A stretch of DNA of 64,000 nt from Candidatus Danuiimicrobium aquiferis. Its GTDB lineage: Bacteria; Omnitrophota; Omnitrophia; Omnitrophales; Danuiimicrobiaceae. Positions 15,149-63,400 of this stretch are shown here, piece by piece; the stretch's first letter is position 1; every line of letters starts with the position of its first letter. A model generated the notes under the pieces. It was given only the letters and a program-made list of their open reading frames with translations, did not search any database and had not been told where the DNA came from. The stretch lies in assembly GCA_001804285.1 (NCBI GenBank), contig MHFR01000042.1, positions 78,725-142,724 of the forward strand. Direction: 5' to 3'. Position numbers and translations under genes: made by a program.

Positions 15149-15159
15149 AGGTAACCGGA

Positions 15160-15390: not shown

Positions 15391-15411
15391 TGTAAAGTCT
15401 CCTTTCTATTT

Positions 15412-16272: not shown

Positions 16273-16274
16273 CG

Positions 16275-16771: not shown

Positions 16772-16838
16772 GTCATTCCCGAAAGCTTTTGTCGGGAATC
16801 TACAGCCTTAGATTCCCGCTTAAAACTTGCGGGAATGA
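16772..16838. repeat. Paired-hairpin element, same family
   Basis: GTCATTCCCGA..TCGGGAATC and GATTCCCGC..GCGGGAATGAC. Confidence 0.8.
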
Positions 16839-16885
16839 CAAAAAACCGGTCAACCTGAGTTACATAGAAAGGTTGTTCATAACAT

Positions 16886-17242: not shown

Positions 17243-17440
17243 CCCGACTTTCACATCGATTTTGAGAATCGGTGCGAAAGTCGCTTTGGGCGCAAGTGGT
17301 TGCGCCCAAAGTTTTGCGCCATTTTTAAATTAGGGCGCAAAAGATAAGCCCTGCGTCGCAAAGATATAAACCATCTTTGCACCGCAGCTCTTACGAGCGG
17401 AATTTCTTTATTAATGATGAGAAATCCGGGCTAATATTGA
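17243..17440. repeat. MITE-like element, single unit (forward)
   Basis: AACCCGACTTTC(A/T)CATCGATTTTGAGAATCG...GGGCGCAAAAGATAAGCCCTGCGTCGCAAAGA...CTTACGAGCGGAATTTCTT matches the first unit at 7519. Confidence 0.85.
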
Positions 17441-17466
17441 AGCCGGCAGATCGGGAGGCTTGAAAC

Positions 17467-18081: not shown

Positions 18082-18173
18082 CGTTTTACGTAATCACGTT
18101 TCCACGATGCCACGCAGCCACGAAAAAGAATAAAATTCCCGGCTGTTGTCCCGCACTCTTCTGACGGTGGTTT

Positions 18174-19613: not shown

Positions 19614-21073
19614 GCCTGAACTCCCATGATATTAAGCAGGTTTGTAATGCCGGTTGTCATAAAATGGAGCGCGACTTTCGGATAAATGCCGATCAAAAGA
19701 ATCAAAATCATAAGTGGCACGAGCGTAAAAATTTCGCGTGCATTCATATCCGGCAAATTTTCCCATTTCGGATTGAGTTTTCCGAGCAGAACGCGCTGGA
19801 TCATGTAAAGAAGGTAACACGCGGCCAATAAAATACCCAAGCACGAAAACCCGGTCATCCACGGATGAACCGGAAAGCTTCCCATCAGGATCATGAATTC
19901 ACTGACGAATCCCGCAAGGCCGGGAAGTCCGAGGGATGCAAGTGAAATAAAAATCAGAAATCCGCCGTAAACGGTCATTTTAGCGAACAGGCCGCCGAAT
20001 CCGTCAAGATCGCGTATATGGGCCCGGTCATAAAGGACGCCGACGAGTAAGAAGAGCGCGCCGGTGATGAGTCCGTGCGTGACCATTTGCATCATTCCGC
20101 CTTGAAATCCGGCCAGCGTGAATGCGGAAAGGCCGAGGAGGATAAAGCCCATGTGGCTGACGCTCGAATAAGCGACCATGCTTTTAAAATCTTTCTGCGC
20201 GAAGGCGACGAATCCTCCGTAGACGATTCCGATCACAGCCAAAATGCCCATGGCCGGTCCGAACCAAACGGCTGCTTCGGGCAGGATCGGATAACTGATC
20301 CGGTAAAATCCGTACGTGCCCATTTTGAGGAGAACGCCTGCCAGAATGACGCTGATCGGTGTCGGTGCTTCGACGTGTGCGTCGGGAAGCCATGTATGGA
20401 ACGGGAATATCGGAACTTTAATCGCAAAACCGAAAAAGAGCGCGAGAAAAACAATCTGCTGAAATTGAAGAGGGAAGGATTGTTTTGCGAGATCCATGAT
20501 GTCGAAAGTGTGAGAGCTGCTTGTAAGATAAAGCGCCAAAATTCCAAGTAGCATGAATAAACTTCCGGCCAATGTGTACAGGAAAAATTTAATGGCGGCG
20601 TATTCTTTTCTCGGCCCGCCCCAAATTCCGATCAGAAAATACATCGGCACCAAAACGATTTCCCAGAAAATATAGAAAAGGAAAAGATCGATTGAAAGAA
20701 AAGTGCCCATGATGCCGGTTTGGAGCAGAAGGTAAAGCGCGAAATATTCCTTTAAGCGTTCTTTAATCCCAAAAGAAGCGATGCAGGCCAGAAAACCCAA
20801 AAGGCCGGAGACGAACACCATCGGAAGATTGATCCCGTCGATGCCAAGATGATAGAAGACATTCATCTGCGGAATCCAACTGAAATGTTCAACGAATTGG
20901 AGTCCGGTTGCTTGTGCGTCAAACCGGAACAAGAGATACACGGAAAGCACAAATTGGATTCCCGTGATCATTGTTGCGATCGTTTGAATCAACCGGCGGT
21001 TATCTTTGTGCAAGCAAAGAATGATGATCATTCCCGCGACCGGCAGAAAAATTAACGATGATAAAATAGGCAT
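19610..21073 (-). CDS. nuoM: NADH-quinone oxidoreductase subunit M; start reassigned to ATG at 21073, preceded by AAGGAG. The track ORF is extended to 21142 across a repeat element.
   Basis: Antiporter-like subunit conservation; strong RBS; upstream extension encodes repeat-derived WIPAFAGMT. Confidence 0.9.
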   Translation of the reverse strand: MPILSSLIFLPVAGMIIILCLHKDNRRLIQTIATMITGIQFVLSVYLLFRFDAQATGLQFVEHFSWIPQMNVFYHLGIDGINLPMVFVSGLLGFLACIASFGIKERLKEYFALYLLLQTGIMGTFLSIDLFLFYIFWEIVLVPMYFLIGIWGGPRKEYAAIKFFLYTLAGSLFMLLGILALYLTSSSHTFDIMDLAKQSFPLQFQQIVFLALFFGFAIKVPIFPFHTWLPDAHVEAPTPISVILAGVLLKMGTYGFYRISYPILPEAAVWFGPAMGILAVIGIVYGGFVAFAQKDFKSMVAYSSVSHMGFILLGLSAFTLAGFQGGMMQMVTHGLITGALFLLVGVLYDRAHIRDLDGFGGLFAKMTVYGGFLIFISLASLGLPGLAGFVSEFMILMGSFPVHPWMTGFSCLGILLAACYLLYMIQRVLLGKLNPKWENLPDMNAREIFTLVPLMILILLIGIYPKVALHFMTTGITNLLNIMGVQA

Positions 21074-21091: not shown

Positions 21092-21239
21092 GTTATTCCC
21101 GCCCCGTATCTGTGTCATTCCCGCGAAGGCGGGAATCCACATGCCGAGTAAATCTCAGCGAGAATTATGGATCCCCGCTAACCCCGGAAAAGCTGGGGCC
21201 GGCCCTTTCTTTCCCAAGGGAAACTTGCGGGGATGACAA
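21092..21239. repeat. Composite paired-hairpin elements between nuoL and nuoM (includes the long-loop variant GGATCCCCGC taaccccggaaaagctggggccggccctttctttcccaagggaaactt GCGGGGATGAC)
   Basis: Stems match the family; the loop has nested mini-hairpins. Confidence 0.8.
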
Positions 21240-21257
21240 CGCTTTAATAATGTCACT

Positions 21258-44986: not shown

Positions 44987-45061
44987 GGTTCTATTCCCCT
45001 TCAATCTCCTTATAAAAAGTATCTGTTTAGCGTTCTGAAGTGGCGAACACGCCAGGTTCGT

Positions 45062-45125
45062 GTCATGCCCGCATGCTTAAGGCGGGCATCCACAGTTTCT
45101 GGATTCCCGCTTTCGCGGGAATGAC
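45062..45125. repeat. Paired-hairpin element downstream of the TSUP gene
   Basis: GTCATGCCCGC..GCGGGCATCC and GATTCCCGC tttc GCGGGAATGAC. Confidence 0.8.
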
Positions 45126-45139
45126 AAAAAAACAGATGC

Positions 45140-45406
45140 TCTTTTACAGATAATCGCTTCAAAGCGCTAAACAAATACTATAAAAACGCCTAAAAATTGT
45201 ATCTTATTAAATACATTTATAATACATAAAGCACATTTCTAAACAAATGTAAGCTATTTATATATACGTATGTAATAAATATAGTATTCTTTGAAAATAC
45301 CTTTCTAAATTACTTGAAAAACTTAAACTCAGCGTGTATACTTCAAACTGATTCGAACATTCCATGGTATTCCCAAAAATCCGCAGTACTGGAATGTTAG
45401 GGGAAC
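45140..45406 (+). promoter_or_regulatory. AT-rich leader/promoter region of the giant ORF, ending in RBS AGGGGAAC before ATG 45407
   Basis: Local AT richness distinct from surrounding DNA; immediately follows a paired-hairpin element. Confidence 0.4.
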
Positions 45407-48400
45407 ATGAGGGGAAAATCCAGAATACTTAGATCGATAGCAGCGGTGACCGTATTCTTTTTTTTCTGGAATACCGCTACAGCGTACAGCTTGCCGGTTC
45501 TCGGACTTTTGCCGGCCAAGTTAGGCACCGTCCAATCCACACCTGAGCATATTCCGTCACAATCAACCGACAAAACAGTTCTGCTTTTATTAAATGCTCA
45601 TACTTCAAGTGACGCACAAAAAAACATCGCCGAAATGCTGGAGTTCTTTCAGGCTCAAGGCATTGACCTGATTGGCTTAGAAGGCGCGGATGATCGGATC
45701 GACGGTGAGATATTCCGCAGGTTCCCGCATAAAGAGTCGCTTGCGAAAGCCGCTTGGCAGATGGTAAAAGACGGAAAGCTGACCGGAGCGGAATACTTTT
45801 ACGTTACAGCGGAAAAAATACCGGCATTTTACGGGATCGAAGACAAAGCGCTTTATCACGAAAATAAAAATGCATTTGTCGCGACTACCCAATTGCGTGA
45901 AAAACTTGCCGTAACTTTAGAAAAGGTTTCAAACGCCGCCGCCGAACTCAAAAACAAAATTTACTCCAAAAAACTCAAGAATTTCGATTCCCTTGTCACA
46001 CGCCATAAAAATCAGGACACAAGCTTCCTCGATTACTTTTCACAATTAAACGAAGCCTCCGACGATGCGGATATCGCGATTCCGACTTATCCGAATGTTT
46101 ACGCCTTATCAAAAGCAGTTGAAAAGGAAAAAACCCTCAATCAGAAAAAAGTTGCCAAAGATATCGAAAAAATCAAGAAAACCCTCCCGAAAGACGCAAT
46201 CCGGGAAGATATTTTTTCAATGGCCGGTAAAAACGATCTTGAATCTCGGAATAAAGATGAAAATGAAGATGTTTTATATATATATAAGAAGCTCTACACG
46301 TATTTTTCGGGGTTGGTTAATCCAAACGTAGGGGCGGGGTCATCCCGCCCGTTTGAGAAGGGCGCGGAGACCGCGCCCCTACAATTGAATGATTTCAAAC
46401 ATTTTAAGCGTTACTACGAATGGCTTGAAGCCGTTACGGCAGTCAAGCAGGCATCTCTTTTCGAAGAATTAGATGCGCTTGTGGTGCAAATTTACAGCCG
46501 GATCGCAAAATCGGATAAAGAGAAAACGCTGCTTGAAATCAACCGTTCTTTTGAGACATTTCAACAGAAACTTGCAATTCAATTGACGCAAAAAGATTGG
46601 GCGAGGGTGAAGGCTATAAAGGTGCCTGGCACGTTTTTTGTGCCTGGCACCTTTTCCGAACTCGGCGACCGTGCTCCTCAAATTTCACCGGAAGAACTCT
46701 TATTGATCGAACAGGCGAATGCACAGGCCTCCCAATTTTATGAAGTTGCCGAAAAACGAAACGTAATTTTCACAGATAAAATTATCAACCAGATGGAGAC
46801 ATCACAGAAAAACGTTTCCGTTGTTGTGGTCGGCGGTTTCCACGAAGCCGGCCTCAGAGCAGCGCTCGAAGCAAAAGGCGTTCATACGGCCGTGATTACG
46901 CCGAAAATGAAAGATGCGATTTCTGACATTCCGTATATAGAACGAATGACGGGAAAGCCCACCCAGCTTGAAAAAATCATTACCGAAGCCATGAGCGCGC
47001 TCGAACGTGAAATCGTGATTTCCGGAAACGCACCGGACGAGATGCGGCGAAATGCTGCAGTGGAACTTGTAACGGCTTCCGTGCTTGAGCGGTTGTGGAA
47101 TACGGATCCGGCACGCCGGGAACAGGTTGCCGATGAATTGAGTCGATCGATTTCCAGAATAATTCCGGGCGTTCAACTTGGTTTGCAGAAACCGGTTATC
47201 CCGGATGATTGCGAAGGTTCGGAAAAGTGTTTGCAAATTCCCGTTGTAATCAACGGAAAACAAATCGGCTTGTCCTTAAAACAGAATGGCGCGTCGAAAA
47301 CGTTTAGCATAGAGCGGGCAAAAGCCGGGGCGCTTCATGAATCGCCCGTACAACAACCATCCGAAGGGGCAATTTATGAATTGCCCGTACCGGTGAATGA
47401 GAATCCAATATTTCCCGGCGCAAAGCGATCTTTGTTCGCTGGTCACCTTGGTGCTGCAGCGGCAGTTGTCATTTCCCGTTCGGAAGTGCGGACCGTTACA
47501 GTTACCAGAGAAGAAAATGTTACGACGATTACGTTTGATGACGGAACGACAGTTTCTGATAGCAATGCGCAAAAATTAGCGGAAAAACTCAAAGCGGTAC
47601 TTCCTGAAAATCTGAGGACAGGAGTTTTAGAGGGAACCGATAAAGCAGCACAGATTTATGTTGTCTCGGGGTCGCGTGGGCGGGATATATACATATGGAA
47701 TACGGATGAACTTCAAACTGCTTTAAATGAATTATTAACTTCCAAATCCGCAACGCCACAGTTTCCGGCAGCAGCATCTCCGGTTATTGAGGCTCGCTCA
47801 GAACACCGTGTTGCTAAAATATTGACTGTGGTGGGTGTTATGGCGGGAGCGATTGCTTCTTACATAATTCCTAATCAAGCGATTCATTTGATCCAGCAAT
47901 ATAATGCGGATATATTTAAATGGGGTTTGATCAGTGTGGCCGGAACTCTTGTTGGGGGTGCGGTCATAGGATTGCTTTGGCATGAAGAAAGAGCGTGGCG
48001 CCAGGCCGCCGCGAAAACGCGCAACATAACAGATCGTTCCAGTGCTGATCAAGAGAAAGCCCAACGCTCCGAAGTGCGGATGAACGCTGATTTTGATGAT
48101 TTGTTCGGTACAAATTTATTTTCGTCAAGGTTGTCATTGGTGTTTGGGGTAATCCTTGTTGTCGGTATCGGCATCGGTATTGCTGTGAATCGGCATGAAC
48201 GTGGGAATACTCCTTTTCCAACCACTATGCCGGCAGAAAGTGCGCCCTCAAGTAATATTCAACCAGCCACCTGGCCAGCGGCGCGCTCCGAAGTGCGGAC
48301 GCAAAGATCGCCGGAGGAACTTTTAAACTTGTATGGAAGATTTGCGCGTGAATTTGCACAAAGAGCCGCGCCGTATCCCATAGATGAAGTCGGAATTTTT

Positions 48401-51400
48401 CACGTCATTAATTGTTTGAGAAAAATCCCCCGCGATACGAGTGACCGGGAAGGAATGGCGGATCCAAGACTATCAAAACCAATCGCTTATGCTATCGTGA
48501 AGCAAGCCCAGCAAGATGATGCTGAATCGAAAGCGTTGGCCGACCGATTACATATTCCTAAGATCAACCCATTGTATCTCGCGGCATTTGAACAATACTG
48601 GAAATATTTAACTACGCGACAGCCTCCCGTCAGTGACATAAGCCAAACTCTCGGAGTCCCCGTGACCTCCTGGCGGTTTGTGAAAGCGCTTCCGAAAGAT
48701 TCCGGCGAACTCAAAATTGTTCTGGATTATTTTCTGCAAATGCTGCGGAAAACCAAAGCGCAATTAGACCGGTCCCATGAAAGCATGATGGGCGATTCAA
48801 CGATAGTGGATGACATTTTAGGCGGAAGCACAATTCCAAACGGCGAACAGGTCGAAGCGATCAGAATGAGTTATGGCGACGAAGCTGTCGAACCGACGTT
48901 GAGGGAACAAGTTAAAGAATTATTATCGAAAGTGCCCGCACCGCAAGCCCGGCCCAAAGACCTGCAAAAAATTTCATTTGAGAAAATTCGTAAAGATCCG
49001 ACAAATGTGGAGAACTGGGAAACGCTGATCGCGGAATTTAATAAAGCGTTTGTTTATTTGCAGGGTTCTATCAATAAGGAAGCCGACGAGATTCGGAAAG
49101 ATGTAAAAAAGCTACGTGCCGAACCCGGCATGCGGGCATGGCTCGTCAACGGTTTTAAAATCAAGAATTTAATTAGAAAAATTGACCAGGGATACAGAAC
49201 CATCCAGTTTTATTCGGATATTAGCGCGCAGCTAAGCCAGTTGAGAATTCTTGCCCAGGCGGTCCATGACGCCAAGGCGAGTCCGCAAAAATTGAGAGCT
49301 TCTCCCAAGACGGGAAGCGGTCGTTCGGAAGTGCGTGGGTCCTTGAGAGAACGGATGAAAGGTTTTTGGAATGAATTTTCACCGGCTCAACAGCATATTC
49401 TCCGCCGTCAAGCTGGGACCTTGCTATTTATTATCGGAGTTGTCGGAATTGCAGTGGGGTCTGCTTTATTTGAACGCAAATCATCGCCGCCGACGACAGC
49501 TCCTTCTCCTACAAGTCAAAGATCAGAAATACGGACAACGCCAAGCACAGAGGAATTACTTCGGATTTCCGAATATATGAGGTTTAAGGATTGGCAAATT
49601 ATTTACAAGGCCGGATCCGGCCATCCGGGCGGAACTCTTTCCGCGACAGAAATTCTGGCAACGCTTTATTCCGACAGGGAGTTGCTTCGTATCGACCCAG
49701 TGCGGGACAGAAATACAGACTATACAAAACGTTGGAAAAACCGTGACCGGCTTGTGCTGTCTAAAGCACACGTCGTTCCGATTCAATATGTGGCTTTGTA
49801 TCTTTCCGGACTTTTGACGCGCGAGGAGATTGAAGCTTTACGTCAAGATTCCCAAGGACTTGCTCAAGGGCACGCGACAATGACGACGTCCGGTATTGAT
49901 CTTTCGGGAGGCGTACTCGGTTACGGGGCTCCGGCAGCGATGGGAATGGCGGTAGCGGCAAAAATGGACGGCCGCGATTATCATACCTTCACGCTGATCG
50001 GCGACGGTGAAATGCAAAAAGGTCCGATGTTCGAAATGATGCAAATCGCTCCGCAGCTCGGCCTCGATAATTTTACGGCGATCGTGGATTACAACCAGTA
50101 TCAGCAGAATCGCGCCAGCACCGGTTACACGGCCTTTGATTATGACAAGATGTCGAGTGTGTGGGAACTCGCCGGATGGAATGTCATCAAAGTGGACGGA
50201 GAAGATTTCAAAGACAACGCCCGTTATATTGAAGAATTGCGGAAAGGTCTTCGCGATTCCAAGAAAATGAAAAACAGCAAACCGACGGTTGTGATGGTGA
50301 AGTCCATCAAAGGCCGCGGCATTTCGGTCGCAGAAAATTTATTCCGCGCCGGCAATACAAAATTTCATGGTAGCGCTCCGAATGCACAGCAATATGAAGA
50401 AGGCGTGCGGGAAATCGCACCCCGGCTCGGCGTGAGTGTTGAGGACAGAAATCTGGCAGATATTGAAAATGATTTAGAAACAATCGGCGACGAACTGCGG
50501 GGAAAATTCCATGACAAATGGCAGATTAGGCAAGGCGGCTTTTTTGGAATCGATCAGAGGAATGACACGTCAGCAGCCCTTGCTTACCGGGAACGGGCGG
50601 CAAAGGTTGGCCAGATTCAACCCAAAGCATACAAACCCGGAGAGGAAGTCGCGACGCGTGTCGCCGCCGGAGACAAACTTCTTTATGAGGCAAGCAGAGA
50701 TCCTTCCCTTGTGTTTGTGAGTCCTTCTGATTTACAGGATTCCGTCAATTTCAAACCGATTGCGAAAGTATTAGGCGAATTTGGTTCACCGGACAAAATA
50801 GGTGACTTTGGTCCCAAAAGTCCGCAAGGCAGATTAGTCACTATCGGAATTATGGAAGACGGCGGCGTGGCTTTGTCGGTTGGAATTTCGGCTGCAGGAT
50901 TAGGATTTAAACCTTTTGTCGGAACGTTTGATCGTTTCGTCGACATTATGCTGACCACCGTTGAAATGGCTGCGCTTAACAGAATTCCTGTTGGAATTGT
51001 CGGCACTCACGCGGGTTCCGAAACCGGGCCTGATGGCGGCGGAAATTTTTCCATTAAAACACCGGCGTTGATAGGCGCTATTGCAGATCACGGACAGGAT
51101 ATGGCGATGTTCGAGCCTGCGGATGCTCCGGGAACCGTGATGGCGGTTGATCAAATGATTACTACTTTAACATCCGGCATGCCGGCTTATTTAAGAGCCA
51201 GCCGTTCTCCGCGGCTCGTGAGAGATCGCGCAATGGCTGTTCGAGATGAAGGAGAAAATGGATTTATTGTTTGGAAATATGCCCTGAATCCCAAAATTAT
51301 TTTAGTCGCAAGCGGTGCGACAGTGACCAATACCATTAAAGCAACCGAGCTGTTGGAATCTCAAGGGATACCTGTCAGTGTTATCGAAATTACGTCGGTG

Positions 51401-54400
51401 ACGGGAATCGAAAAACCGTTTTCCGGCAATCGTCTTGCCCAAACGTGGCTTGCACCGCAAGTTCCGGTTTATACCATTCATGATGCATCAGCAAATGCTC
51501 TTCATGATCCCGTTCTTGGAGTTGCGCAGAGAACGAGAGCTTACGTTCCGGTTTATTCGCGCGGGATCACCGATGCGGGTTCCGCGTCTCCGGCTGCCAT
51601 GTTTACGGCCAATCGTTTTAATGCAGATCAAATTGCCGAAGATGCGGAGGTTATTGTAAAAGGATCAGTTCCTCCGGGTGTTTTCGTCCGGTCTGAAACC
51701 CGCAACATGACAAATAGTTCCAGTGAGGAGTTAACCGAAGCGCGCAACCGTGAAAATAATTCAGAGGGAATGTCAACGGAAAGCGCGCAAGAGTCCTCGT
51801 CTGATCAAAGTGCTAAGACAAGGGCCGAAGCCAGGGAGTTATTGTTACAAAAATTAGAAGGCCTCCTCGGACAATTAGAACAAATCAAGGACGAAGCAAA
51901 TGCCGATCGAATAAAAACATATCTCCACAGTGTGTCGGAGATGATCAAGATGGCGGGCTGGATGCCGGAAGTAGAGAAATTTATTAAAGAGCATTATGAG
52001 ACAACTTCCGGGGCTCAGGTGTTTGAGCCAACGGTGGATGAGCAAACAAACCAAGATTCTTTAGTGGCGCGACGAATCCGGGAGTTAAGGGAAATATTCT
52101 TCGCTAGTTTCAAAAATGCAGCTGAAGACAAAATCATGCAAGTGGCGGGCGGCTATCTGCCGATGCTCGAAGACTTCCAACGCAAACTTGCTTCCTTAGC
52201 CGAAATCGAAAGTTTTGTGAAAGAAAAGATACAACAACAGATACTGGCATTGGTTGAAAAAACGTTCAACGCTATTTTTGAAAATCCTGCTTTGATAGAT
52301 CCTGAAATTAGAGAGGCTTCCTATGTGTTTTCTGTGATCGGAGACGTTGGCGGGAAAGAAGCGGCGCTTAAAAACATTGCCGCTTGGCTTCGGGAAAACA
52401 AGTTGGAACTTCTTCGCACGCGCATTGAAGAAGGGTTGATACTATTAGGAAAGAATGACGCCAAGACCGACTTAAGTCATGCCTATGAGCTTTTGACGGG
52501 GCGTCCTGCGCCTTCGTATCAAGATGATCAAGTGGGATCCCTTGTCGCAAGCCCCATCCGCTCCGAAGCGCGCAACGAATTAAGTTCCGAGTTGGAAGTT
52601 CAAAGTTTGAAGTTGGGGAAAGAAGGTAAACCTGAAACTTTAAACTCAGAACTTGGAACTCAACTTAGGGCCGAAGCCCGCAACATAACAGATAGGTCCA
52701 GTGAGGAGTTAACCGAAGCGGGTGCCGGTACTTTGGCTGATCAAGAGAAAGCCAAACGTGCCGAAGTGCGCAACCTCGGAAATAGTTCAGAGGAAACATC
52801 AATAGAAAGCGCGCAAGTGTCCTTGTCTGATCAAAGCGCTAAGACAAGGGCCGAAGTGCGGGAAGTTGACTACGCCTATTTGGGGGCTTACGGTTTTGTC
52901 GGGGCCGCGATGCTTGGCGCAGCATTTTATGGGAATTATGCCGCTAACCGCAAAGTAAAAACACCAGTCCAGGAAGCCGTATCGCCGACAGCGCACAGCT
53001 TGATCCTTCCGGTTGTCGATACAACAATCTATGTGACGGAACAGGAATTTCAAGAAATCGTTCAAAAAGCGTTTCCGGCGATTGGGACAGCGCCGCTTGT
53101 GTTTGTGACTCCCGAACAGAATACTGCGTTTCTTAAAACATTTTTACCGCACAGAGAACAACATCTATTCAAAAATCTGGTTTTGGATGAACCGCAGCGA
53201 ACGCTCGGGGGGTCTATTAGTTCGGATCGGGTGCTGACGGGTGTAGGGCAGCCAATCAAAGTATTCGGATTTGTCGGAAATGATGATGCGGGTATATTTG
53301 CGCTTGAGAAACTTAAAGGATCCGGCATCGCGACAGGGATCCAGGTGCTGGATGGCGGAATGACATCTCAAACGCTTGTGATTGAAGTGGTGAAGCCCAA
53401 GACGGACGGCAGTGGCGGTTATGATTCGGCAGGAAGATACTTTTTGCATGTTAAAGGCGTGAATGAAGAACTTGGGAAATATTTAGAAAACGGACGTTTG
53501 AAAAGATGGTTTCTTCAGGAGTTCGGAGAAAACGAAAAGCCGATTCTCCATATCGGTTACGAGGCGCTTTCGTCGGAATATTATTTCCGGAATTTATACC
53601 GGCTGATTCGGGAACTTCGTGCGGAAGTGCCCGGCTTGCGTGTTGCGTTGGATACGGTTGCTGATTTCGGGAATTTATGGGGCAAATTTTCAGATGATGG
53701 GAAAAAATTACTCGCAGAACTGGATGTGCTGACCGTTAGTCTCGACGAAGCGGTAGCCATTTACGAAAAGCTGACAGAAAAAAAACTTACGGACATGAAA
53801 GAAAAAGATATGACGCTCGCTCAGGCGGAAGCGGTGTCGAGAGTCATGGTGCCTTGGTTTCTTGCGACAATGGAAAAAGGCACGGTTTTAATCAAGGCGG
53901 GCAATAAGGGAAGTTTTTATGGATCGAATCATTGGCCGAATGGCGGCTGGCGGAACCGAAAGATTCCGTTTGCATGGATGCCGATTGTTCCTAATGAATT
54001 GATACAAGCTGAATATGCGGCAGAAGTGGATGGCGAAAAAGTTGCCAATACGACCGGTGCGGGCGATGCGGCTTCTGCCGGTTTTATTCAGGCGCTGCAT
54101 GACGGCTATGATGTCCATCAGGCGGCGGCACTGGCTTCGGTCTACGGAGGTTTAAGTTACGGCCAACTCGGAGGAGGCGTCATCGGGCACCCTGCCGAAA
54201 CAGTGGGGAAACTTTATCAGGATTTTGTTGCGGCAAACCGCGGCGATTACCGGCCGGCAGCATTTAGACAATCGTCACTCGCGGAGATGACGGACAAAGA
54301 AATTGAGACCCTGATCATCCGGAGAATTGTTGCTAATAACTTTAAGACAGTAAAACCATGGAGTTTTGGGGCTAAAATTGTAAATGTGGAACCGGTCGAT

Positions 54401-57400
54401 ATTAGTGAAGCGATTGAAAAAGTAGGCGCTGATTTGATTAAACAAGTCCGCGAAATTATTTTGAAATATGGGGAGTTTCGAATTGGGATAGAACCGTCTC
54501 ATGACCTTAAAGAGGATGATACGTCTGAGCCCCAAAGCATGTGGGTTTATCCGCCGTCTTTTGCGACTCAGGGAAGAATGTTTTTCGAATGGGTATATGA
54601 TGCTGTTGCGCAGTATGGAGAAGAACTTTCCGGAAACGGCCATCGTATTTCTTCTTTACAGATGGAACAAATCAGAAAGTTTTTGGCGGCATATCCGGAT
54701 GACAACATTCTCGGCATTGTCGCGATCGACCGTTTTCATTCTCAATATAAAAGAGTAAACAAAATAAACGACGGACAACTCCATTATTTTATTGTCAGAC
54801 GGAATTCTTTTGAGGACGATAATTTTCTCGTTTTGCATCCTGCCGATCAGGACTTTGCGGTAGCGTTTGCCCGTGCAATGCCTTTCGAATTTCACCGGAT
54901 GCCCTTAGGGGCTCTGGTGTTAAATACTCCTGAAGAATTGGGCCAGATCAGCGGTACGGATGTTGTGCTCCAGATGCAGTTTATCCCCGTCTCGAAAATG
55001 GCCGGAGTGACTGCTTACAATTTTGATCCGAATCATGCCTTGATCCAGAAATGGTCTGTGCTTGCAGGAACGCCTGTGTTAGAAAATTGGATAAGAAATC
55101 AGCTTGAGATTCGGATTGCAGAACTTTCCCGCTCGGAAGTGCGAAATACGTTTACTCCGGCGGAACTCGGCGAAATCACGCAGCCGCTGATCGACATTCT
55201 CCATCTTGTCCGCGAATTAGATGCCACATCGAACGGATCTTCTCAATTGAGAGCATTCATTCCTCAAGTCCGGCGGGAAATTGAACGCCTCAACATCGAA
55301 GGATTGAATGCCGTTTTGGTCGGAAAAATTATGCCGGTTGCACAGGGGCTTAGCCATGCGGAGCGGGCTCACCACAGATTTTGGACAGAAACAATGCCTG
55401 CGCCGGTCAGTCGGATGGCTCAAGAATTAGCAACCCGGCAGCAATCGTTAACAGGTGATATTGATCAAAAACTGACAAGAGCAAAGGCTGCTGCGTTGAA
55501 GCCCGTAATTACTCATTTAGTAAAAGCGTATGATTTGGTTGCCGATGCACGCGCAATGCAAAGAAAAGTTTTGCAGGATTCAGAAATTGACGGGTTGTTT
55601 AAATCAACCATTGAGAAAATCGAAGCACTTCAAATTGAAGAAGCGATTGGGTTGATTGATCAAATTGTTGAAACGATAAATTCTCTTCTTGAACTTGATC
55701 CGAAGCAATTGCCTTCAATGGTTTCAAATTTAGAACAAACACGGACCGAACTAAACATTGTTCGCCGTCTATTAGAACCGCGTGCCAATGCCGGCGCGGA
55801 TGTAGCTGATGCGAGGGCCGAAGCCCGCGACCTTGGAAGTTCTTTTGTCATTCCCGCGTCCGCCAAACAACGCGGTCGGATCCGCCAAAGCGTTAGTGGC
55901 GGAAAAGCGGGAATCCAGCTGGATCCCCACTTGCGTGGGGATGACACCAATTTGAGAGCCGAAGTGCGGACTGATCAGGTATCGGCGGAAGATTTGGATT
56001 GGGAACGTGCGCGGCTTGAGCAAGAAGAGGAAGATTTAAGAATTAAATGGGAAGCAACGGAATCGGCATATCTTAGATTAAAACAGCTTAGATCAAAGCA
56101 GCAAGGCGGAATTAGTCATAAGGCACTTACGGATGCTCAACAAAGAGCCGCTGAGGCTAACGGGCAATATCTAAAAGCGCAGCAAGCTTTGTTAGCTTTT
56201 CAGAGACGGATTGCTTCGCGAAACGTTTCTTCGAAACCTTCCGAAACTTTAGTGCAACTTCCGGCGTGGATGTACTCTGCTGTTGGGATTGGTAAACCCA
56301 CGTTCCCGACCGTTGCGGCTCAAGTTGCGGCATTAACCGGTATCGGCGGAGCTTCGATTCCAGTACCGCGTCAGGTGCCAACGTCGTTGCTGCAAATTAT
56401 TAGGTCGGAAGCGCGCAACGATCGAAGTTCTTCTGTCATTCCCGCAAAAGCGGGAATCCAGCTGGATCCCCACTTGCGTGGGGATGACACCAATTTGAGA
56501 TCCGAAGTACGGGGCACAGAGTCCCCAGTGCAAGCGGCGCTCAAAAATATTCTGAATGCGCATTTTTATTTAGGAATCATTCCGGGCCTGATTGCATTTT
56601 CGGTTTTTCCATTATGGAGCGCATCGTTTAGTGCGGAGCGCAGACTTCTTCAGACGAAATTAAGCCGGCAGGGAATTTCTTATTGGCAAGTGGATTGGTC
56701 CGAAATTCCGGCTGACGTGTATGATCAAATCAAAGCCATCCGGGCGTCCGGCGGCGATTTTGATGTTCAGTTCAGTCCGGCCAGGGTTGATGATGAATAC
56801 TCAGACTATCATTATCCGCAAACGCTTCGCATTGTGCCGGTTTCCCTAGAAAAGGGGACAGGCAATCGTTCGCTTTTGAGTCATATGCCTGTCCCCTTTT
56901 CTGCGTTAAACGCTGATCAAGCGCGAGCCGAAGTAAGAAGTGAATTCGGAGAAGTCTTAAATCCAATTTTGGCGGATGTTTATAAGATTTTAGAAAGAGC
57001 CGGACGGAAGTTAAGTTTAAGTCCTCTCGAAATCGAAGAAATCAAAACGCCGGTTAACACCTTCTTGAAATGGGTTGAGTCAGAACACGCGTTATCGCAC
57101 GGTCAATATGAACAAGCGCTGGATATCCGCGTCCGGCATAGTAATCCCATCGGGAAAGACGGAAAACCCGAGCGCGCCCAGGGCGGAATTCGCATTTTAC
57201 TGCCGGAAAATCTCGGAAAAGGGTTCAATGACGAGAAATCCAAATTCTACCAAACGCTCAACAGAATGATTGCTGACGGAAAAATCCAGTTAAATGATAG
57301 TGACCACGAAGTTCAAGCTGCATTAAATCGATTCCTGGAGCAGTGGCTGACCGAAGAAACGACAGCGCTTGCCATTGACATGAGTCTGAAAAATAAAATT

Positions 57401-60400
57401 ATGGGGCTTCCGCACGGCGGCGGGAAAGGGATTTCCTTTTTAGGAAAATGGGAAAAAGTTAATGGTGCCTGGAAATTAGTGCCGATTGTGAAGGCCCAGA
57501 TTCAAGACGGCAAACGTGTGTTTCGAACATCGGATGTGGCGATTTTGATGAGGGATATCGGAAGAACATTTGCCGAAAACAATGTGATTCATGAATTGCT
57601 TGACGGCGGCGCGCCCGATCTAAATCCATTCGGCCCGTCGATTACCACGGAGCTATTAATTTCATGGATGATGGATGAAACTATCGCCGTTCTGATGCGG
57701 AATGAAAATGATGACATTTGGAAACAAAATCCCGGGTTGCTTGAGGAATTAAAGGATGCGGATGATAATGTCATTACCAACCCCGCATTTTTAAAGGTTT
57801 GTATGGCGTATACACAGCGGCATCCCGAAAAGATCCTTCCGTTTCTATCGCGGTACACCGGTAAACCGGTCGGATTAGGCGGGTTGCAGTATCGTAAAAA
57901 AGCAACAGGCGAAGGCGTCGTGGTGGCGGCAGAACGCATGGTCACGAAACTTCTTCCGGAGCGGGCGAAATTAGAAAAACCATTATCCGGATTAACGATT
58001 GGTGTTCAGGGACTTGGGAATGTGGGCACTTGGGTGGCAAAAGAAGCTGATCAGCGGGGTGCTTTAGTGACTGTATTAAGCGATGAGGGCGGGGCTATTC
58101 AATCCCCGCAATTTACGGGTGAGAAGTTGACGACGATTGGGACGTACCGCGATCTCACAAAAACAAGAAGCCTGTTGGGAGTTACAAAGCCAACGCTCGA
58201 TGGCCGGCCGAATCCATATTATATTGAAGGTGTTGAAGTCTTAGCGAGAGGAACGGAAGAAGGAAATATAGCGCTTTTTAAATCGAATACTCAGATTAAA
58301 GTAACGGCGGCAGTACAGGGAGCTATTGATGAAAGCAATGTTGATTTAATCGGAGAAGGAACATTATTCATTGATGATGGTGCTAACGGAGGAACGACGA
58401 GCGAAGCAGGCCGTTTGTTATATCAACGGGCTCCAAAAGTTCACGCACTTTCCGCAATCTTAGTCAGCGGCGGTGGCGTCGGACAATCTTCCCGTGAAGT
58501 GGTGGCGAATCTGACGAATCGCTATACTTCGGAAGGGGAAGACAGGGCATGGGTGTCCGAAAGAATCAACGCTGCTGTGGATGCCACTTGGACGGTTAGC
58601 CGGGCGAATGAGGTTGATATGGGGCTTGCGGCGGCGATGCTTGGAATCAAGCGTTTACGCGGGATTTCATCTTTCCGTGAAGTTCAACCCAATGTTTTGA
58701 AGAATGAAAAGCCTTCCACGATTGATGAGTCGCTTGCGATTGATGAAATCCGGTTGGCGGCTGAACGCCTTCGTCAATATGGAATTGAACAGCTAAATTT
58801 ATTGGCGGCGGCAAAGTTGTCTGAAAATGCCGGTGTCCCGGTTGAAGTTCTCGATGAAACCCTTCATTTGAGTAACTCCTTCAAAATTTTAGGATCTCTT
58901 AATTTTATTTTACGTGAACTGGAAAAGGCAAAACGGCAGGGTGTTACGATTACCACGATCGGGACGCAAACAACATTTAATCACGGATATGCGCTTGCGA
59001 TTGCTTACAATATTCTTGTTAATAAGAATGTCATTGATCCGAAACAGACAGAGCTTGTGATTTATGTCGGGAAAGAGATGCCGCCCGAAAATGTCAAACG
59101 GCTTGAAACGCTTCACGCGCGTGTTGTGCAGTTCGAGAATTACGAAAAAGCCAGATATGAAATGGACCGTACAAAGGAACAACTCCGGGATCAAATGATC
59201 CGGGTTGAGCATTTTAACGGGGTTTGGGAAGGATACGCGACTATTTTCCTCCATCTGTTCGATCAAACTAAAGCAAAAGTCGTAAGCGGCGAGTGGGAAA
59301 ACAAAACAATCGGAGTGACGGTTCCGGTCGGCACGGGCGGATTAATTGCCGGTGCGCAAGTGCTCAAGAAATTGGTTCAGGATGAAAAGCTTCCCGTGAA
59401 CATTAAAATCATCGCGGTTCAAACACCCGAAATCGACAGTTTATATCAATCGCTTCTACAAGGAAGAACCGTGCAAAGGAAGTTTCCCCCGATGGTTTAT
59501 GCCAGAGGAATTGGCGTAGAGGAACCGGAAATATCTGTTGGACTGGCGGAATCGTTTATCGATTACGTGGTGTTGGCGGATGAAAGAACACAGGGAATTC
59601 CGGCGACGAAATTACTTTATGACGATATGTCCATGCACGGTCTGGGAGCGCAGAAATATGAAGTCACCTCAGGTTTGACGGCATCTGTGGCGGTTGCCCA
59701 GAAAGAATTTTTTGCGCGCGAAGGAATTGATCTCTTTATTCCGGTGTTAAGCGGAGCAAATGAAATCGAGTCTGTTTGGGAAGAAGTTTTGAAGAGTGAT
59801 GGACAAATTGCCCGATCCGAAGCGCGCGGAATTTCTGGTGCAGGGCAGAATTCGCTGACAAATCTTACTTTTGCTGAATTTTCGGAATATGTCAAAACCG
59901 GAGAAATCGGCCGGGGAGATCGAATTCAAGTCAGAACCAAAGGCGGCCGGATTGACGAAGTTATTTTCGAGCAACTAGAACCTGAAGGAGGGATTTTTCA
60001 ACCGACCGAAATTCAGGGTATTAAAAAAGTTCGGGAGGCAGGACAGCGTTCCCAGGATGTCGAGGTTGCTTATCAGGCTAAAGATGTTCAAACGGTCAGT
60101 GTCATTGCCCGCAGCAACGGTTCACTGCCTGAATTGTTGATACAGCGTGTTGCCTTACAAGATCGCATGGAACAGATTGTGGATGAAATGGTTGTGCCGA
60201 GCGAGGAATTGCTGAGTTTCAGCGGACGAATGATAGACGAAATGAATGCCGGCCTTCGCGGCGATCCCAAGTCATTAAAAATGATTGCGAGCATGGTGCC
60301 GGAAGCAACGGGGAACGAAAAAGGAATTTATGGATCTACCGATATGGGTGGGACAAACCTCAGGAATTTATTTATTAAAATTGAAAATGGCGAAGCGTCT

Positions 60401-63400
60401 CTTGTGGCAATGACAAAGGCCACGATTCCGGTCAATTTAATGGGCAAATCGTCCAGCGCAAAGAAGTTATTTAAATTTGTTGCCGGCAAACGTAACGAAT
60501 TTCTAAAATCCAGAGTATTAAACAAAGCGCTTAAAGATCAAAAAATTAGTATTCCAGAAAAAGATTTGATCGGATTTGCGTATTCTTATCCGGCCGATAT
60601 GGGCGCGATTGATATCGCTTATTCAAGTGGAGCGACTAAATATATGTTACTGACGGATATTGAGGGAAAAGATGTCGGCGCGCTTTACAACGAGGAGCTT
60701 CAAGCCTTGGGATTAACGGCAAGTCGAGTGGGCGCCATTATCAATGATACGGTGGCAACCGGCGCGCTTGCGCAGCTTGCCAACAAAAATGTTCTCGGCG
60801 GTGGCATATTAGGAACGGGCGAAAACTGGGCTTATCTCGAAGATATTGAAAATATTCTTACTTTAACTGAGGCGCAAAGGCAGTGGCTTCGCGAACATGG
60901 CATCAAGAGGATGTGGATCAACATAGAAGCCGGCGGTTTTGATCGAGTGCGACAGACCGAATATGATAAGCAAATGGATCAAATTTCGCCGAAACCCGGT
61001 TCGCAGTTGGCGGAAAAAATGATTTCCGGCATGTATTTGGGCGAACTGGTTCGCGTGATATTGACAGATTTGGCAGGCAAAAAGCTCCTTTTTAACAGTC
61101 AAACCGGGAATCTGTTAGAGACTTCTTTCGGAAAAGATGAATACGCCTATGTTTCAATTTTCGGAATCAGGATCCCTCTTTTTAAGAAACTTGCGGAGCT
61201 TCTGAAAACTATCGGATTAGGCAGATGGATCCGGAAGAATGTTTTCACCTCTTCCGATATGGATCCTATTGCGGCGGATACAACACCCAATCTTAGCATG
61301 ACACGAAATGTTCTCCGGAAATTTGGCATTATGCAAACGACTTATGAGGAACGGAAGGCCGTCAAACGAATTGTGGATCAAGTTGCTTTGCGATCGGCTT
61401 CTCTTGCGGCTGCTCAGATCATGGCAATTATTTTAAAAGTAGATCCGAATCTGGAGCGGTTCCATGGGATGGCTATTGACGGAAGTTTGTTTGAGAAATA
61501 TCCGCGCTACGAAAAGATGATGATGGGTGCGCTCCGTAAAATTGCGGAGAGGAAGTTCGGGGACTCAAGAAAGGTTGATCAAATCACACTGACGCTCAAG
61601 AAAGACGGAACAGGCAAAGGCGGCGGAGCGGTGACTGCGATTGCCGATCAGACAAAAATTGCCGAATTGCCTCGGTTCCCTCGCGTACAAACGGGAGAAA
61701 ATTTCCGGAACCTATCGATTCAGAAAGTGGTTGAGTTGGTGAATGCGCTTGATCTGGGCTATCAGCAGGCTCAAGGGCTCAGGGCGGTGATGGTCCAATC
61801 GTCCGGCCAGAATGTCCAGGTTTTCTGGCGGGAAGGAAGACAACCCATCGGCGGTTTTAGCCGTGCGCTGAACGAAATTAGCCAGATGTTACGCGGCCTT
61901 GGAAGTCCCATATTTGATTTATATGAAGTGAGCCACAAAGGCGCGCTGGGACTTGTCATTGTTCTTTCCGGGCAAACTCCTGCACGCGGAAAAATCGGTG
62001 ACGTGTTTAACATTGCCAGGGCCGAAGCGCGAGTGGCGCAAACGGCGGAGGAATTTGGCAGACTTGCCCAGGCGGCACAAGAAAAAGGATGGATTTCAGA
62101 GGCGGCGTTAGCGAATATCATATCGTGGGGCAGTTCCGAATATAATTTGCGGCTCGGACAATTTTTGACCAAAATGTTTTCCGGTTTCGATGAAGATATC
62201 ACAGTCCACGAAGCCATTACGAAACAGTTTAATGCTGCCGGCCAAAATGAAAAAGTCTGGAAAGAAATCGGCGATGCTTGGTATGAAATCCTGAAAGTCG
62301 GAACAGCCGGTATGCGCGGCAAGATCGGATTCGGCACGAACCGGATCAATCTTTTTACGATCGGAAAGCTTGAGCTTGCTCACGCTTTGGCGGTTGCGGA
62401 TGATCAATATAATGACATTGTGAAGAAGGTGGATTCTCAATTTGATCCGATGACGGAAAGAAAAGCGGTTGTAATCGGCGGTGATTCGCGGCATGGTTCA
62501 TGGCTTCCGGATGCGAAGCAGCCGAACGGCGGAACGCCGGGCTGGCAAATTAAATTAGAAGCTTTGTTGAATGTTGTCCACGGTGTTCGCGCGTATGTTT
62601 ATCAAATTCCAACTTCAACGCCACAAATTGCATGGTCGACGCACAGCCTTGAAGTGGCCGAAGGTTACCGGATTGTGTCCGGCTCGATGAATACGGCAAG
62701 TCATAATCCCGCCACGGACAACGGAAACAAACCCTACAAACCGGACGGCTCCCAGTCGACCGGCGAGTTTGCTGATCTGCTGAAGGACCTGGTCAAGAAG
62801 GCGACACCGGACTATCTTGCGACGCTTCAATATGCCAACCGCAATATTTTAGAAAACATTGATGAGCTGTTCGAACAGGCCGTGAAGAATGGCGAGATTG
62901 TGCTGATCGGCGGCGACAACGATCCGCTTAACGTGGATGATCAATTTGTCGAGGTGGAGCTTGACGAAGCGATTCATACGATCGGAGATTTGTTTGATCA
63001 ATCGAAAATTGATTTAGAAAACGCAAAAATTGTTATTTCACCGCTTTGGGGTGTTTCAAAGCATATCTTGGCTAAAATTTTAAAACGACGGGGCCTTCGC
63101 GACGATCAGATCATTTGGGTGGAGGATGTGCCGAATCCTGATTTTCCGGGTGTGAAAGAAGGAAAGCCGAATCCTGAATCGCCGAAAGCACGGGAAGTGG
63201 CACTGCAGAAAGCGATTGATACGGGCGCGGGTCTTGTGTTGTGGACGGATCCGGATTCCGATCGTCCTGCGGTTGCGGTATTGAAAGATCCCAAAGCCAA
63301 GCCGGCCAATTTTGACGATTTTATTTCTTTGAACGGCAATATGCAGCTGGCTGTGTTGACGGATTATTTGATTCGTGAAATTAAGGAATTGGGAGATTTG

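What the first reader, a model, noticed from the sequence alone, without database searches (positions are those of the whole stretch)
48030..52870. Linker modules within the giant gene are duplicated (ARN-ITDRSS...ADQEKA-[QK]R-[SA]EVR and SSEE..ESAQ.S.SDQSAKTRAE[AV]RE)
Nucleotide strings recur at several places. CGCAACATAACAGAT(C/A)G(T/G)TCCAGTG...GATCAAGAGAAAGCC(C/A)AACG(C/T)(T/G)CCGAAGTGCG occurs at 48040-48085 and again at 52690-52770. AGCGCGCAAG(A/T)GTCC(T/C)(C/T)GTCTGATCAAAG(T/C)GCTAAGACAAGGGCCGAAG occurs at 51785-51840 and 52808-52860. The linkers therefore spread by duplication or recombination as units, like cassette joints. That fits modular assembly of the gene from enzyme cassettes.
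Basis: seen in the sequence. Interest (0 to 1): 0.55.

Follow-up and report, generated by a model that had tools for sequence, protein, structure and literature searches.

The report
Junction motif in giant multi-enzyme gene
The duplicated linkers are real, and they point to a strictly conserved five-residue motif (Arg-Ser/Ala-Glu-Val/Ala-Arg) at almost every boundary between the enzymes fused in giant genes of Omnitrophota bacteria, most likely the site where this "polyprotein" is cut into separate proteins.

Summary
A self-comparison of the giant reading frame (window 45407 to the window end; called as 11,856 aa on its ENA contig) gives exactly five off-diagonal DNA matches, all in linkers.

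The larger signal is a pentapeptide, R-[SA]-E-[VALMIT]-R. It occurs 19 times in the 6,200 aa visible here (0.07 expected) and nowhere else in the window. It occurs 142 times in 52,255 aa of related giant frames from Omnitrophota MAGs and metagenomes, and essentially never in ordinary genes of the same loci.

- Selection is on the peptide: all six Arg codons are used, Glu is GAA or GAG depending on the genome, and Lys or Asp never substitute.
- The sites lie between domains, in hydrophobic-poor sequence.
- A full transketolase fits exactly between two sites.
- In relatives, CsrA (profile position 1) and a Tat signal peptide start on the residue right after a site.
- Module homology begins just after the site, while the upstream sequence is unrelated.

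Best explanation (about 0.55): processing sites of a bacterial polyprotein, cut after the second Arg. Cleavage and the protease are not shown.

The parts
45407..64000 (+). Giant open reading frame (first about 6,200 aa of a gene called as 11,856 aa on ENA contig ERZ27254845 k141_2858407); it runs off the window end
45407..47476 (+). Signal-peptide-like N-terminus plus a conserved N-terminal domain of about 650 aa (no Pfam family). It opens the motif-bearing giant genes whose start was visible here and belongs to a family of 9,616 cluster representatives
47477..47491 (+). Junction motif RSEVR (aa 693), directly after the N-terminal domain; positionally conserved in P0001 (RAEMR) and P0002 (RAEAR), with the first site at a similar position in L013-L017
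47795..47809 (+). Variant motif RSEHR (aa 799), before two transmembrane-like helices
48065..48079 (+). Junction motif RSEVR (aa 889), followed directly by Met and a transmembrane-like helix
48284..48298 (+). Junction motif RSEVR (aa 962)
49322..49336 (+). Junction motif RSEVR (aa 1308)
49520..49534 (+). Junction motif RSEIR (aa 1374), at the N-terminal edge of the transketolase module
49523..51661 (+). Transketolase module (NCBIfam NF004559 profile 7-625 of 627 = aa 1375-2087)
51689..51703 (+). Junction motif RSETR (aa 2097), at the C-terminal edge of the transketolase module
51690..51837 (+). Duplicated linker unit, copy A (RSETR-NMTNSSSEELTEA...SDQSAKT-RAEAR), including motif RAEAR at 51821-51835 (aa 2141)
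52559..52573 (+). Junction motif RSEAR (aa 2387)
52668..52863 (+). Duplicated linker unit, copy B: an array of three motifs (RAEAR 52667, RAEVR 52757, RAEVR 52847) separated by 25-aa spacers; a mosaic of copy A and the 48009-48078 unit
48009..48078 (+). Duplicated linker unit, copy C (TRNITDRSSADQEKAQ-RSEVR)
53681..54175 (+). PfkB-family sugar kinase module (best-matching stretch)
55130..55144 (+). Junction motif RSEVR (aa 3244)
55814..55969 (+). Linker with motifs RAEAR (55814) and RAEVR (55955) bracketing an in-frame palindromic MITE/REP-like core (55847-55945, interrupted by an insertion of about 57 nt)
56402..56512 (+). Duplicate of the previous linker: motifs RSEAR (56402) and RSEVR (56498) bracketing the intact double-hairpin core (56435-56488, read as SVIPAKAGIQLDPHLRGDD)
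56924..56938 (+). Junction motif RAEVR (aa 3842), before the dehydrogenase module
57329..59584 (+). Glu/Leu/Phe/Val dehydrogenase plus a PLP-dependent (threonine-dehydratase-like) module; there is no motif between the two
59813..59827 (+). Junction motif RSEAR (aa 4805)
60167..61639 (+). Hexokinase module
62018..62032 (+). Junction motif RAEAR (aa 5540); homology of the phosphoglucomutase module to L015/L016 starts about 8 aa after it
62579..63862 (+). Phosphoglucomutase/phosphomannomutase module (domains I-III)

Best explanation
The giant gene encodes a polyprotein: a single chain of independent units (metabolic enzymes, small membrane segments, helical modules). The units are separated by flexible linkers that each carry one or more copies of a short recognition peptide, R-[SA]-E-[V/A/L/M]-R.

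The motif most likely is the recognition and cleavage site of an Arg-specific endopeptidase that cuts after the second Arg. In protease subsite terms (P1 is the residue just before the cut, P1' the one just after) this means P5 Arg, P4 Ser/Ala, P3 Glu, P2 Val/Ala, P1 Arg and a small P1'. Cutting there would release the modules with their native N-termini. Short spacers of 25-45 aa flanked by two sites would be released as small peptides, or would simply give redundant sites.

Shown here:
- The motif exists, with extreme enrichment restricted to giant genes.
- It is conserved at the peptide level across genomes.
- It lies at module edges.
- Native N-termini directly follow it.

Inferred: that it is cleaved, and where. 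Unknown: the protease.
For: 1. Enrichment: 19 sites against 0.07 expected in the window's giant frame, and none in any other real ORF of the window. Overall there are 142 sites in 52,255 aa of giant-type frames from 12 loci, against 3 in 21,777 aa of other frames, and those 3 lie in pieces of giant-type genes.
2. Peptide-level selection: both Arg positions use all six codons. Glu is GAA in some genomes and GAG in others. Ala and Ser use all codon families. The unbiased count of R.E.R is 86 against 11 expected, almost all R[SA]E[VALM]R. K.E.R, R.E.K and R.D.R are at background.
3. Position: no site lies inside any Pfam or NCBIfam domain match (about 36% of the visible chain is covered, so 0.64^19 is about 2e-4). 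Flanks are hydrophobic-poor (0.271 against 0.316, p = 4e-14). The 54 residues before the first site are low-confidence in the AlphaFold model.
4. Complete units between sites: the transketolase profile 7-625/627 spans aa 1375-2087, exactly between RSEIR (1374) and RSETR (2097).
5. Native N-termini at +1: CsrA profile position 1 is the Met right after the site, at four places in L015/L016. A Tat signal peptide (MTRREFLR..., TIGR01409 at 17.1 bits against a cutoff of 16.7) starts right after a site about 3,750 aa into L015. Met at +1 is 5.6% against a 1.6% background. N/S/A/T/G make up 61% of +1 residues.
6. Module edge: the phosphoglucomutase module is homologous in three genomes from about 8 aa after the site, and unrelated upstream.
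7. Topology argument (inference): several transmembrane-like helices separate modules. Uncleaved, an odd number of helices would place ATP- and sugar-phosphate-dependent enzymes outside the cell.
8. The literature raises cleavage as an open question and states that no cleavage points are known.
Against: - No cleavage product has been observed, and no proteomic data were available here.
- No peptidase domain was found in the visible 6,200 aa, in the complete 5,908-aa relative L016, in L015, or among neighbouring genes.
- The universal N-terminal domain is only weakly similar to the TraB/PrgY family (E about 0.1 in 2 of 6 members; no significant Foldseek hit). It is also far more widespread than the motif: 142 of its 150 best family members have essentially no sites. 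So it is not convincingly the cognate protease.
- Not all domain boundaries carry a site (the dehydrogenase/PLP-enzyme boundary does not).
- Pro occurs at +1 in 6 of 142 sites.
- Within-genome codon homogeneity shows a DNA-level component that a pure cleavage-site model does not require.
Confidence: 0.55

Rival explanations
1. The motif is an uncleaved short linear binding motif. Repeated copies in the linkers would be bound by a partner (scaffold, chaperone, membrane-insertion or secretion factor, or HEAT/TPR-type modules of the same proteins) to organise or target the giant chain without cutting it.
For: - Strict five-residue conservation with free flanks in disordered, hydrophobic-poor linkers is also what binding motifs look like.
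- Tandem arrays of sites (e.g. aa 2387-2487) would give avidity.
- No protease was found.
- HEAT repeats occur in relatives.
Against: - It does not explain why native start Mets of CsrA and a Tat signal peptide sit exactly at +1. By general knowledge, a Tat signal buried about 3,750 aa inside a chain should not work.
- It does not resolve the topology conflict for cytoplasmic enzymes separated by transmembrane helices.
Confidence: 0.2
2. One reading: the motif is a DNA-level joint (microhomology or recombination site) that lets enzyme cassettes be shuffled and linkers be copied. On this view the peptide is incidental.
For: - Five recent linker duplications.
- Motif 15-mers are more alike within each genome than synonymous choice predicts, with genome-specific codons.
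- Modules occur in different contexts with the motif at the edge.
- A palindromic mobile-element core sits between two motif copies, and one terminal repeat of the intergenic element resembles the motif DNA.
Against: - Between genomes the peptide is preserved through synonymous and codon-family changes (CGN/AGR Arg, TCN/AGY Ser, GAA/GAG).
- Lys and Asp never substitute.
- The motif is always in the coding frame and on the coding strand.
- A 15-nt degenerate sequence (MGN KCN GAR NYN MGN) is a poor recombination target.
- The resemblance to the mobile-element end is within chance expectation (my estimate; not significant).
Confidence: 0.1
3. The motif is a translational or RNA signal: an internal Shine-Dalgarno-like sequence (GAGGUG) that causes pausing at module ends or internal initiation at the following Met.
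For: - In L013-L015 the core often reads GAG GTG, which matches the anti-Shine-Dalgarno complement.
- Where a Met follows, the spacing would suit initiation.
Against: - In the window Glu is always GAA (GAAGTG), and 7 of 19 sites read GAAGCN.
- Only 5.6% of sites are followed by Met.
- The flanking Arg residues are conserved as amino acids through different codons, which an RNA signal would not need.
- Real ribosome-binding sites in the window are weak and unlike the motif.
- Rfam finds nothing in the window.
Confidence: 0.05

Closest known systems
Giant multi-enzyme ORFs of Omnitrophota ('multi-enzyme metabolic cluster' class, bioRxiv 10.64898/2026.06.07.730766; giant genes of West-Roberts et al., bioRxiv 10.1101/2023.11.21.568195; Seymour et al. 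2023, PMC10066038)
   Same: - A gene of more than 10,000 aa.
- Many distinct enzyme families tiled along one chain, including phosphoglucomutase, hexokinase and sugar kinases.
- Interspersed transmembrane helices.
- An N-terminal signal-like region without a known domain.
- Very divergent domains.
- All named close relatives are Omnitrophota MAGs.
   Different: None of these papers reports a junction motif. West-Roberts et al. state that cleavage points are unknown. The C39/S8 peptidase and SecA domains they describe were not seen in the part of the gene visible here, nor in the L015/L016 relatives.
Viral polyproteins with conserved protease sites (e.g. flavivirus NS2B-NS3 cutting after dibasic sites before Gly/Ser/Ala; picornavirus 3C) - from general knowledge
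   Same: - One reading frame encodes many independent proteins.
- A short conserved site lies at each junction, with a basic P1 and a small P1' residue.
- Membrane-spanning segments lie between the soluble units.
   Different: This is a cellular, bacterial system. The units are central-metabolism enzymes and regulators. The chain is 10-100 times longer. No protease domain has been identified and cleavage has not been demonstrated.
Subtilisin-type leader peptidases of class I lantibiotics (EpiP cutting after ...A-E-P-R, NisP after ...A-S-P-R) and coagulation factor Xa (I-E-G-R) - recalled from memory, not tested
   Same: Recognition of small-Glu-x-Arg immediately before the cut resembles [SA]-E-[VA]-R.
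   Different: The motif here also requires an Arg five residues before the presumed cut. No S8 or S1 domain was found in the sequences examined.
Linker/docking regions of modular megasynthases (PKS/NRPS) and eukaryotic multi-enzyme fusions (AROM)
   Same: Enzymes are concatenated by flexible linkers, and modules can be shuffled in evolution.
   Different: There are no carrier, ketosynthase or condensation domains. The enzymes do not form one pathway assembly line. Megasynthase linkers do not carry one universal five-residue motif.

Membership tests
Omnitrophota giant multi-enzyme ORF | Single ORF longer than 10,000 aa | tested here: met
   The gene call on the source contig gives 11,856 aa. 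The frame is open for 6,200 aa within the window.
Omnitrophota giant multi-enzyme ORF | Many distinct enzyme Pfam families tile the chain, with none dominating | tested here: met
   Transketolase, PfkB, ELFV dehydrogenase, PALP, hexokinase and PGM/PMM.
Omnitrophota giant multi-enzyme ORF | Organism belongs to phylum Omnitrophota | tested here: inconclusive
   The window itself carries no marker that I tested. Six of the eight genome loci encoding the same N-terminal domain are titled Omnitrophica/Omnitrophota MAGs, and the closest named protein is from an Omnitrophica MAG.
Omnitrophota giant multi-enzyme ORF | C39 or S8 peptidase and SecA-like domains (West-Roberts description) | tested here: not met
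   No such Pfam hits in the visible 6,200 aa, in L015 or in L016. The unseen 5,656 aa of this gene could not be examined.
Protease-processed polyprotein | One ORF encodes several units that are complete proteins on their own | tested here: met
   A full-length transketolase lies between two sites. CsrA starts at profile position 1 and a Tat signal peptide starts directly after sites.
Protease-processed polyprotein | A conserved short sequence at the junctions | tested here: met
   R[SA]E[VALM]R: 142 sites, never within domain matches, peptide-level conservation.
Protease-processed polyprotein | A cognate protease | tested here: not met
   No peptidase domain in the genes or their neighbours. 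The N-terminal domain is only weakly TraB/PrgY-like and is much broader in distribution than the motif.
Protease-processed polyprotein | Observed cleavage products | not testable with these tools
   This needs proteomics or biochemistry.
TIKI/TraB/PrgY/ChaN/erythromycin-esterase superfamily (for the N-terminal domain) | Sequence or fold similarity and paired GxxH/Glu/Arg signature | tested here: inconclusive
   Invariant H67, E94, E131, E147, N155, R453 and GGFH481. Pfam TraB_PrgY_gumN at E about 0.1 in 2 of 6 members. Foldseek PDB: no hit below E = 0.06, EreC at E = 2.3. The profile against PDB sequences found nothing.
Modular megasynthase (PKS/NRPS) linkers | Carrier-protein, ketosynthase or condensation domains | tested here: not met
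   None among the Pfam hits.
MITE/REP-like palindromic element (for the insert in two linkers) | Multi-copy hairpin core, also present in intergenic DNA, with terminal inverted repeats | tested here: met
   The core pattern occurs 4 times against 0.01 expected. The intergenic copies at about 4795-4945 and 45030-45180 have inverted ends TTTAGCGYTYTGAAG. Target-site duplications were not determined.

The most novel reading that the evidence does not exclude
Giant ORFs of this Omnitrophota lineage are operon equivalents. Dozens of enzymes, regulators (CsrA), membrane peptides and even Tat-exported proteins would be translated as one chain and released by a dedicated Arg-specific protease at R-[SA]-E-[VALM]-R sites. 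That would be a cellular, virus-like polyprotein strategy for gene expression in ultra-small bacteria. New sites would be seeded by duplication of linker cassettes.
Probability: 0.45. Interest if true: 0.9.

Novelty: new variant of a known kind. Interest (0 to 1): 0.72.

Why it matters
Giant genes of 10,000 to over 100,000 aa are a hallmark of Omnitrophota. Whether their products act as one molecule or are cut up is an explicitly open question. West-Roberts et al. could not split them for structure prediction because no cleavage points were known.

A sharply defined junction motif gives three things:
- A concrete, testable prediction of cut sites, with neo-N-termini at +1.
- A rational way to segment these proteins for annotation and structure prediction.
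- A handle for finding the protease by phylogenetic co-occurrence.

If cleavage is confirmed, it would show that free-living or episymbiotic bacteria use polyprotein expression for central metabolism. That would change how gene number, regulation and stoichiometry are read in these reduced genomes.

Tried and rejected
- Homologue search with the whole fragment (too long) and with 5,000 aa (timed out).
- Homologue search with the hexokinase module. It was swamped by eukaryotic hexokinases and returned no giant relatives.
- Genome scan with the six-sequence alignment.
- Metagenome scan to reach the unseen half of this gene. It found only 53-55% relatives, which were useful, but the rest of this gene stayed unseen.
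- N-terminal domain as a TIKI/TraB-like protease. The AlphaFold model is moderate (pLDDT 65), Foldseek has no significant hit, the profile against PDB finds nothing, and Pfam gives only E about 0.1. Its family is far broader than the motif. I am not claiming this.
- Conserved neighbouring protease gene: none.
- Internal Shine-Dalgarno or RNA signal: rejected on codon evidence and on real ribosome-binding sites. Rfam is empty.
- Motif as part of the mobile palindromic element. The resemblance of one terminal repeat (it would read RSEVAN) is within chance by my estimate, so it is left as unexplained.
- Literature strings RSEVR/RAEVR/RSEAR/RAEAR and 'polyprotein' + Omnitrophota: nothing relevant.
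- Taxonomy of the motif-free family members: no names available.

Full report
**The observation**

The repeat finder and a self-blastn of the whole gene fragment give exactly five off-diagonal matches in 18.6 kb:
- 51735-51830 vs 52761-52856 (86%, 96 nt)
- 51695-51742 vs 52673-52720 (92%)
- 48044-48078 vs 52736-52770 (91%)
- 55814-55857 vs 56402-56445 (82%), part of the same missed pair

All five are in linkers. The enzyme modules have no DNA or protein paralogy.

**The gene**

The + strand is open from 45401 to the window end (6,200 codons). An exact look-up of a neighbouring protein places the region on ENA metagenome contig ERZ27254845 k141_2858407, where the gene is called at 11,856 aa.

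Pfam and NCBIfam find these modules:

| Module | Residues (aa) |
|---|---|
| Transketolase | 1375-2087 |
| PfkB kinase | 2761-2925 |
| Glu/Leu dehydrogenase | 3977-4420 |
| PLP-dependent, threonine-dehydratase-like enzyme | 4461-4728 |
| Hexokinase | 4923-5413 |
| Phosphoglucomutase | 5727-6154 |

All score far below NCBIfam's curated cut-offs, so they are very divergent. Between them lie helical segments without a family and several transmembrane-like helices.

**The real signal**

All the duplicated linkers end in R-[SA]-E-[VA]-R. That pentapeptide occurs 19 times in the 6,200 aa (plus one RSEHR), against 0.07 expected from shuffles. In a six-frame scan of the window it occurs nowhere else in a real ORF.

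No site falls inside a domain match. The full-length transketolase profile (positions 7-625 of 627) fits exactly between RSEIR at aa 1374 and RSETR at aa 2097. Some linkers carry arrays, for example four sites within aa 2387-2487 with 25-31 aa spacers.

**Relatives**

The N-terminal 1,400 aa found only five relatives. The closest named one is from an Omnitrophica MAG.
- A genome scan with the N-terminal domain found eight loci, six of them titled Omnitrophica/Omnitrophota MAGs.
- A metagenome scan with the phosphoglucomutase module found three giant genes at 53-55% identity.
- Two further giant genes lie next to P0002 and P0128.

The motif is present in all giant-type frames of useful length:

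| Locus | Sites |
|---|---|
| L013 | 10 (9 before Leu was admitted at position 4) |
| L014 | 9 |
| L015 | 21 |
| L016 | 16 |
| L017 | 11 |
| L018 | 8 + 9 |
| L005 | 3 + 3 |
| L011 | 7 |
| L012 | 4 |

The total is 142 sites in 52,255 aa, against 3 in 21,777 aa of other open frames, and those three lie in fragments of giant-type genes.

**Peptide or DNA?**

In the window both Arg positions use all six codons. In relatives Glu is GAA or GAG, Ala and Ser use all codon families, and Ser once uses AGT. An unbiased count of R.E.R gives 86 against 11 expected, almost all R[SA]E[VALM]R. K.E.R, R.E.K and R.D.R stay at background. Only the five core positions carry information. The flanks show just a weak preference for small residues at -1 and +1. 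The motif is therefore selected as a peptide.

There is also a DNA-level component. Within each of six genomes the 15-mers are more alike than random synonymous choice predicts (0.69-0.79 against 0.62-0.64, with no simulation reaching the observed value). The preferences are genome-specific: GAA 19/19 in the window, but GAG 15/21 in L015 against a GAA-rich background. Opposite preferences at equal GC content argue against a universal nucleotide signal.

**Where the boundary lies**

In L015 and L016, CsrA domains begin at profile position 1 with their Met directly after the motif, at four places, each a tandem CsrA pair or a single CsrA.

In L015 the residue after a site, about 3,750 aa into the frame, opens MTRREFLRTAGQKTLGVLGASAGLGLSQALS. 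This passes NCBIfam's twin-arginine signal model (17.1 bits against a cutoff of 16.7).

Met is enriched at +1 (5.6% against 1.6%), and N/S/A/T/G make up 61% of +1 residues.

The phosphoglucomutase module of the window, L015 and L016 is alignable from about 8 residues after the site, and unrelated before it. Its C-terminal site (AEKRFP-RSEVR) is conserved between L015 and L016.

The site is thus the exact edge of evolutionarily mobile modules, and the downstream unit keeps its native N-terminus.

**Mechanism**

The most economical reading is a polyprotein whose junction motif is a protease site cut after the second Arg.

Three points are inference, not demonstration. A Tat signal peptide needs a free N-terminus (general knowledge). 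Cytoplasmic ATP- and sugar-phosphate-dependent enzymes separated by odd numbers of membrane helices cannot all be on the right side unless the chain is cut. West-Roberts et al. made a related remark that some predicted localisations are implausible.

No protease was identified. There is no peptidase domain in the visible part of the gene, in the complete 5,908-aa L016 gene, in L015, or in neighbouring genes.

The conserved N-terminal domain opens the motif-bearing giant genes whose start was visible here and is followed by the first site. It has an invariant His/Glu/Arg/GGFH signature and weak TraB/PrgY similarity. However, it has no significant structural match. Its family (9,616 representatives) is mostly motif-free among the best 150 members. 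I therefore do not assign it the protease role.

**Rivals**

- An uncleaved binding motif cannot be excluded (0.2).
- A DNA recombination joint as the primary cause is contradicted by the synonymous variation (0.1 as primary cause), though duplication clearly contributes.
- A Shine-Dalgarno-like or RNA signal is contradicted by the window's GAA/GCN codons, by the conserved Arg residues and by the real ribosome-binding sites.

**Comparison with the literature**

Giant ORFs in Omnitrophota, including a 'multi-enzyme metabolic cluster' class rich in phosphoglucomutase, sugar kinases and hexokinase, are described. So the gene itself is a member of a known kind.

None of the papers mentions a junction motif. 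[quoted passage not shown] Full-text searches for the motif strings and for 'polyprotein' with Omnitrophota found nothing relevant.

The motif, as a candidate processing site, is a new feature of a known kind of gene.

**Side finding**

Two of the duplicated linkers contain, in frame, the double-hairpin core of a palindromic MITE/REP-like element that also occurs in intergenic DNA of the window. The same kind of insert sits in a variable loop of the N-terminal domain of P0002. This shows that the linkers tolerate arbitrary insertions, as expected for unstructured spacers.

**Verdict**

- The underlying feature is a conserved junction peptide, most likely a polyprotein processing site.
- Confidence that the motif is real, peptide-level and junction-specific is above 0.9.
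- Confidence that it is a cleavage site is about 0.55.

Noticed in passing
window 55847-55945 and 56435-56488; intergenic copies about 4795-4945, 21100-21240, 45030-45180; L005 nt 11142: A palindromic double-hairpin (MITE/REP-like) element, GTCATTCCCGC-GAAA-GCGGGAATCCAG...GGATGCCCGC..GCGGGCATGAC, is read through in frame in two linkers of the giant gene (SVIPAKAGIQLDPHLRGDD) and in a loop of P0002's N-terminal domain (SVIPAEAGIH). It also occurs in or near intergenic DNA of the window (4 core matches against 0.01 expected).
   Followed up: partly
window about 45044-45061: One terminal inverted repeat of the intergenic element (CGTTCTGAAGTGGCGAAC) would translate as R-S-E-V-A-N and matches motif DNA at about 14 of 18 positions. 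By my estimate this is within chance for a 64-kb window, but it lies just upstream of the giant gene.
   Followed up: partly
window 45407-47476 and proteins P0126-P0270: The N-terminal domain (no Pfam family) defines a very large family: 9,616 cluster representatives at E <= 0.001. In the 150 best hits it starts within about the first 120 residues of proteins 600-7,165 aa long. Many members end in ...RSL/TSL/RAL. Most of the best 150 lack the R-x-E-x-R motif.
   Followed up: partly
proteins P0003, P0129, P0130, P0133, P0145: In the motif-free clade of that family, a different recurrent element is visible by eye between modules: [PA]-G-S-W-[FL]...W-x-E-T followed by transmembrane helices. It may be that clade's junction module.
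   Followed up: no
L015 aa 1910, 4111-4221, 4828-4940; L016 aa 3945-4056: CsrA regulator domains, mostly as tandem (single-chain dimer-like) pairs, are embedded in the giant ORFs: five domains in L015 and two in L016.
   Followed up: partly
L015 aa 3759-3790: A twin-arginine (Tat) signal peptide lies about 3,750 residues inside a giant reading frame, starting right after a junction motif.
   Followed up: yes
L005 nt 1-9771 and 10001-14347; L018 nt 1-9840 and 10001-20056: Giant genes occur in tandem. P0002 follows a gene of at least 5,223 aa, and P0128 (3,351 aa) follows an 18,117-aa gene. Each downstream gene starts afresh with the signal peptide and N-terminal domain.
   Followed up: partly
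L011 (= L006) nt 5068-5070: P0001 and the next ORF, which also carries motifs, are in the same frame and separated by a single stop codon. This could be a sequencing error, a real gene boundary or read-through.
   Followed up: no
window 57329-59584: The Glu/Leu dehydrogenase and the PLP-dependent threonine-dehydratase-like enzyme are fused without a junction motif between them, unlike the other enzyme boundaries.
   Followed up: no
window 49523-63862: All enzyme modules score far below the curated NCBIfam cut-offs (e.g. transketolase 276 bits against 488). They are very divergent from ordinary cellular enzymes.
   Followed up: no
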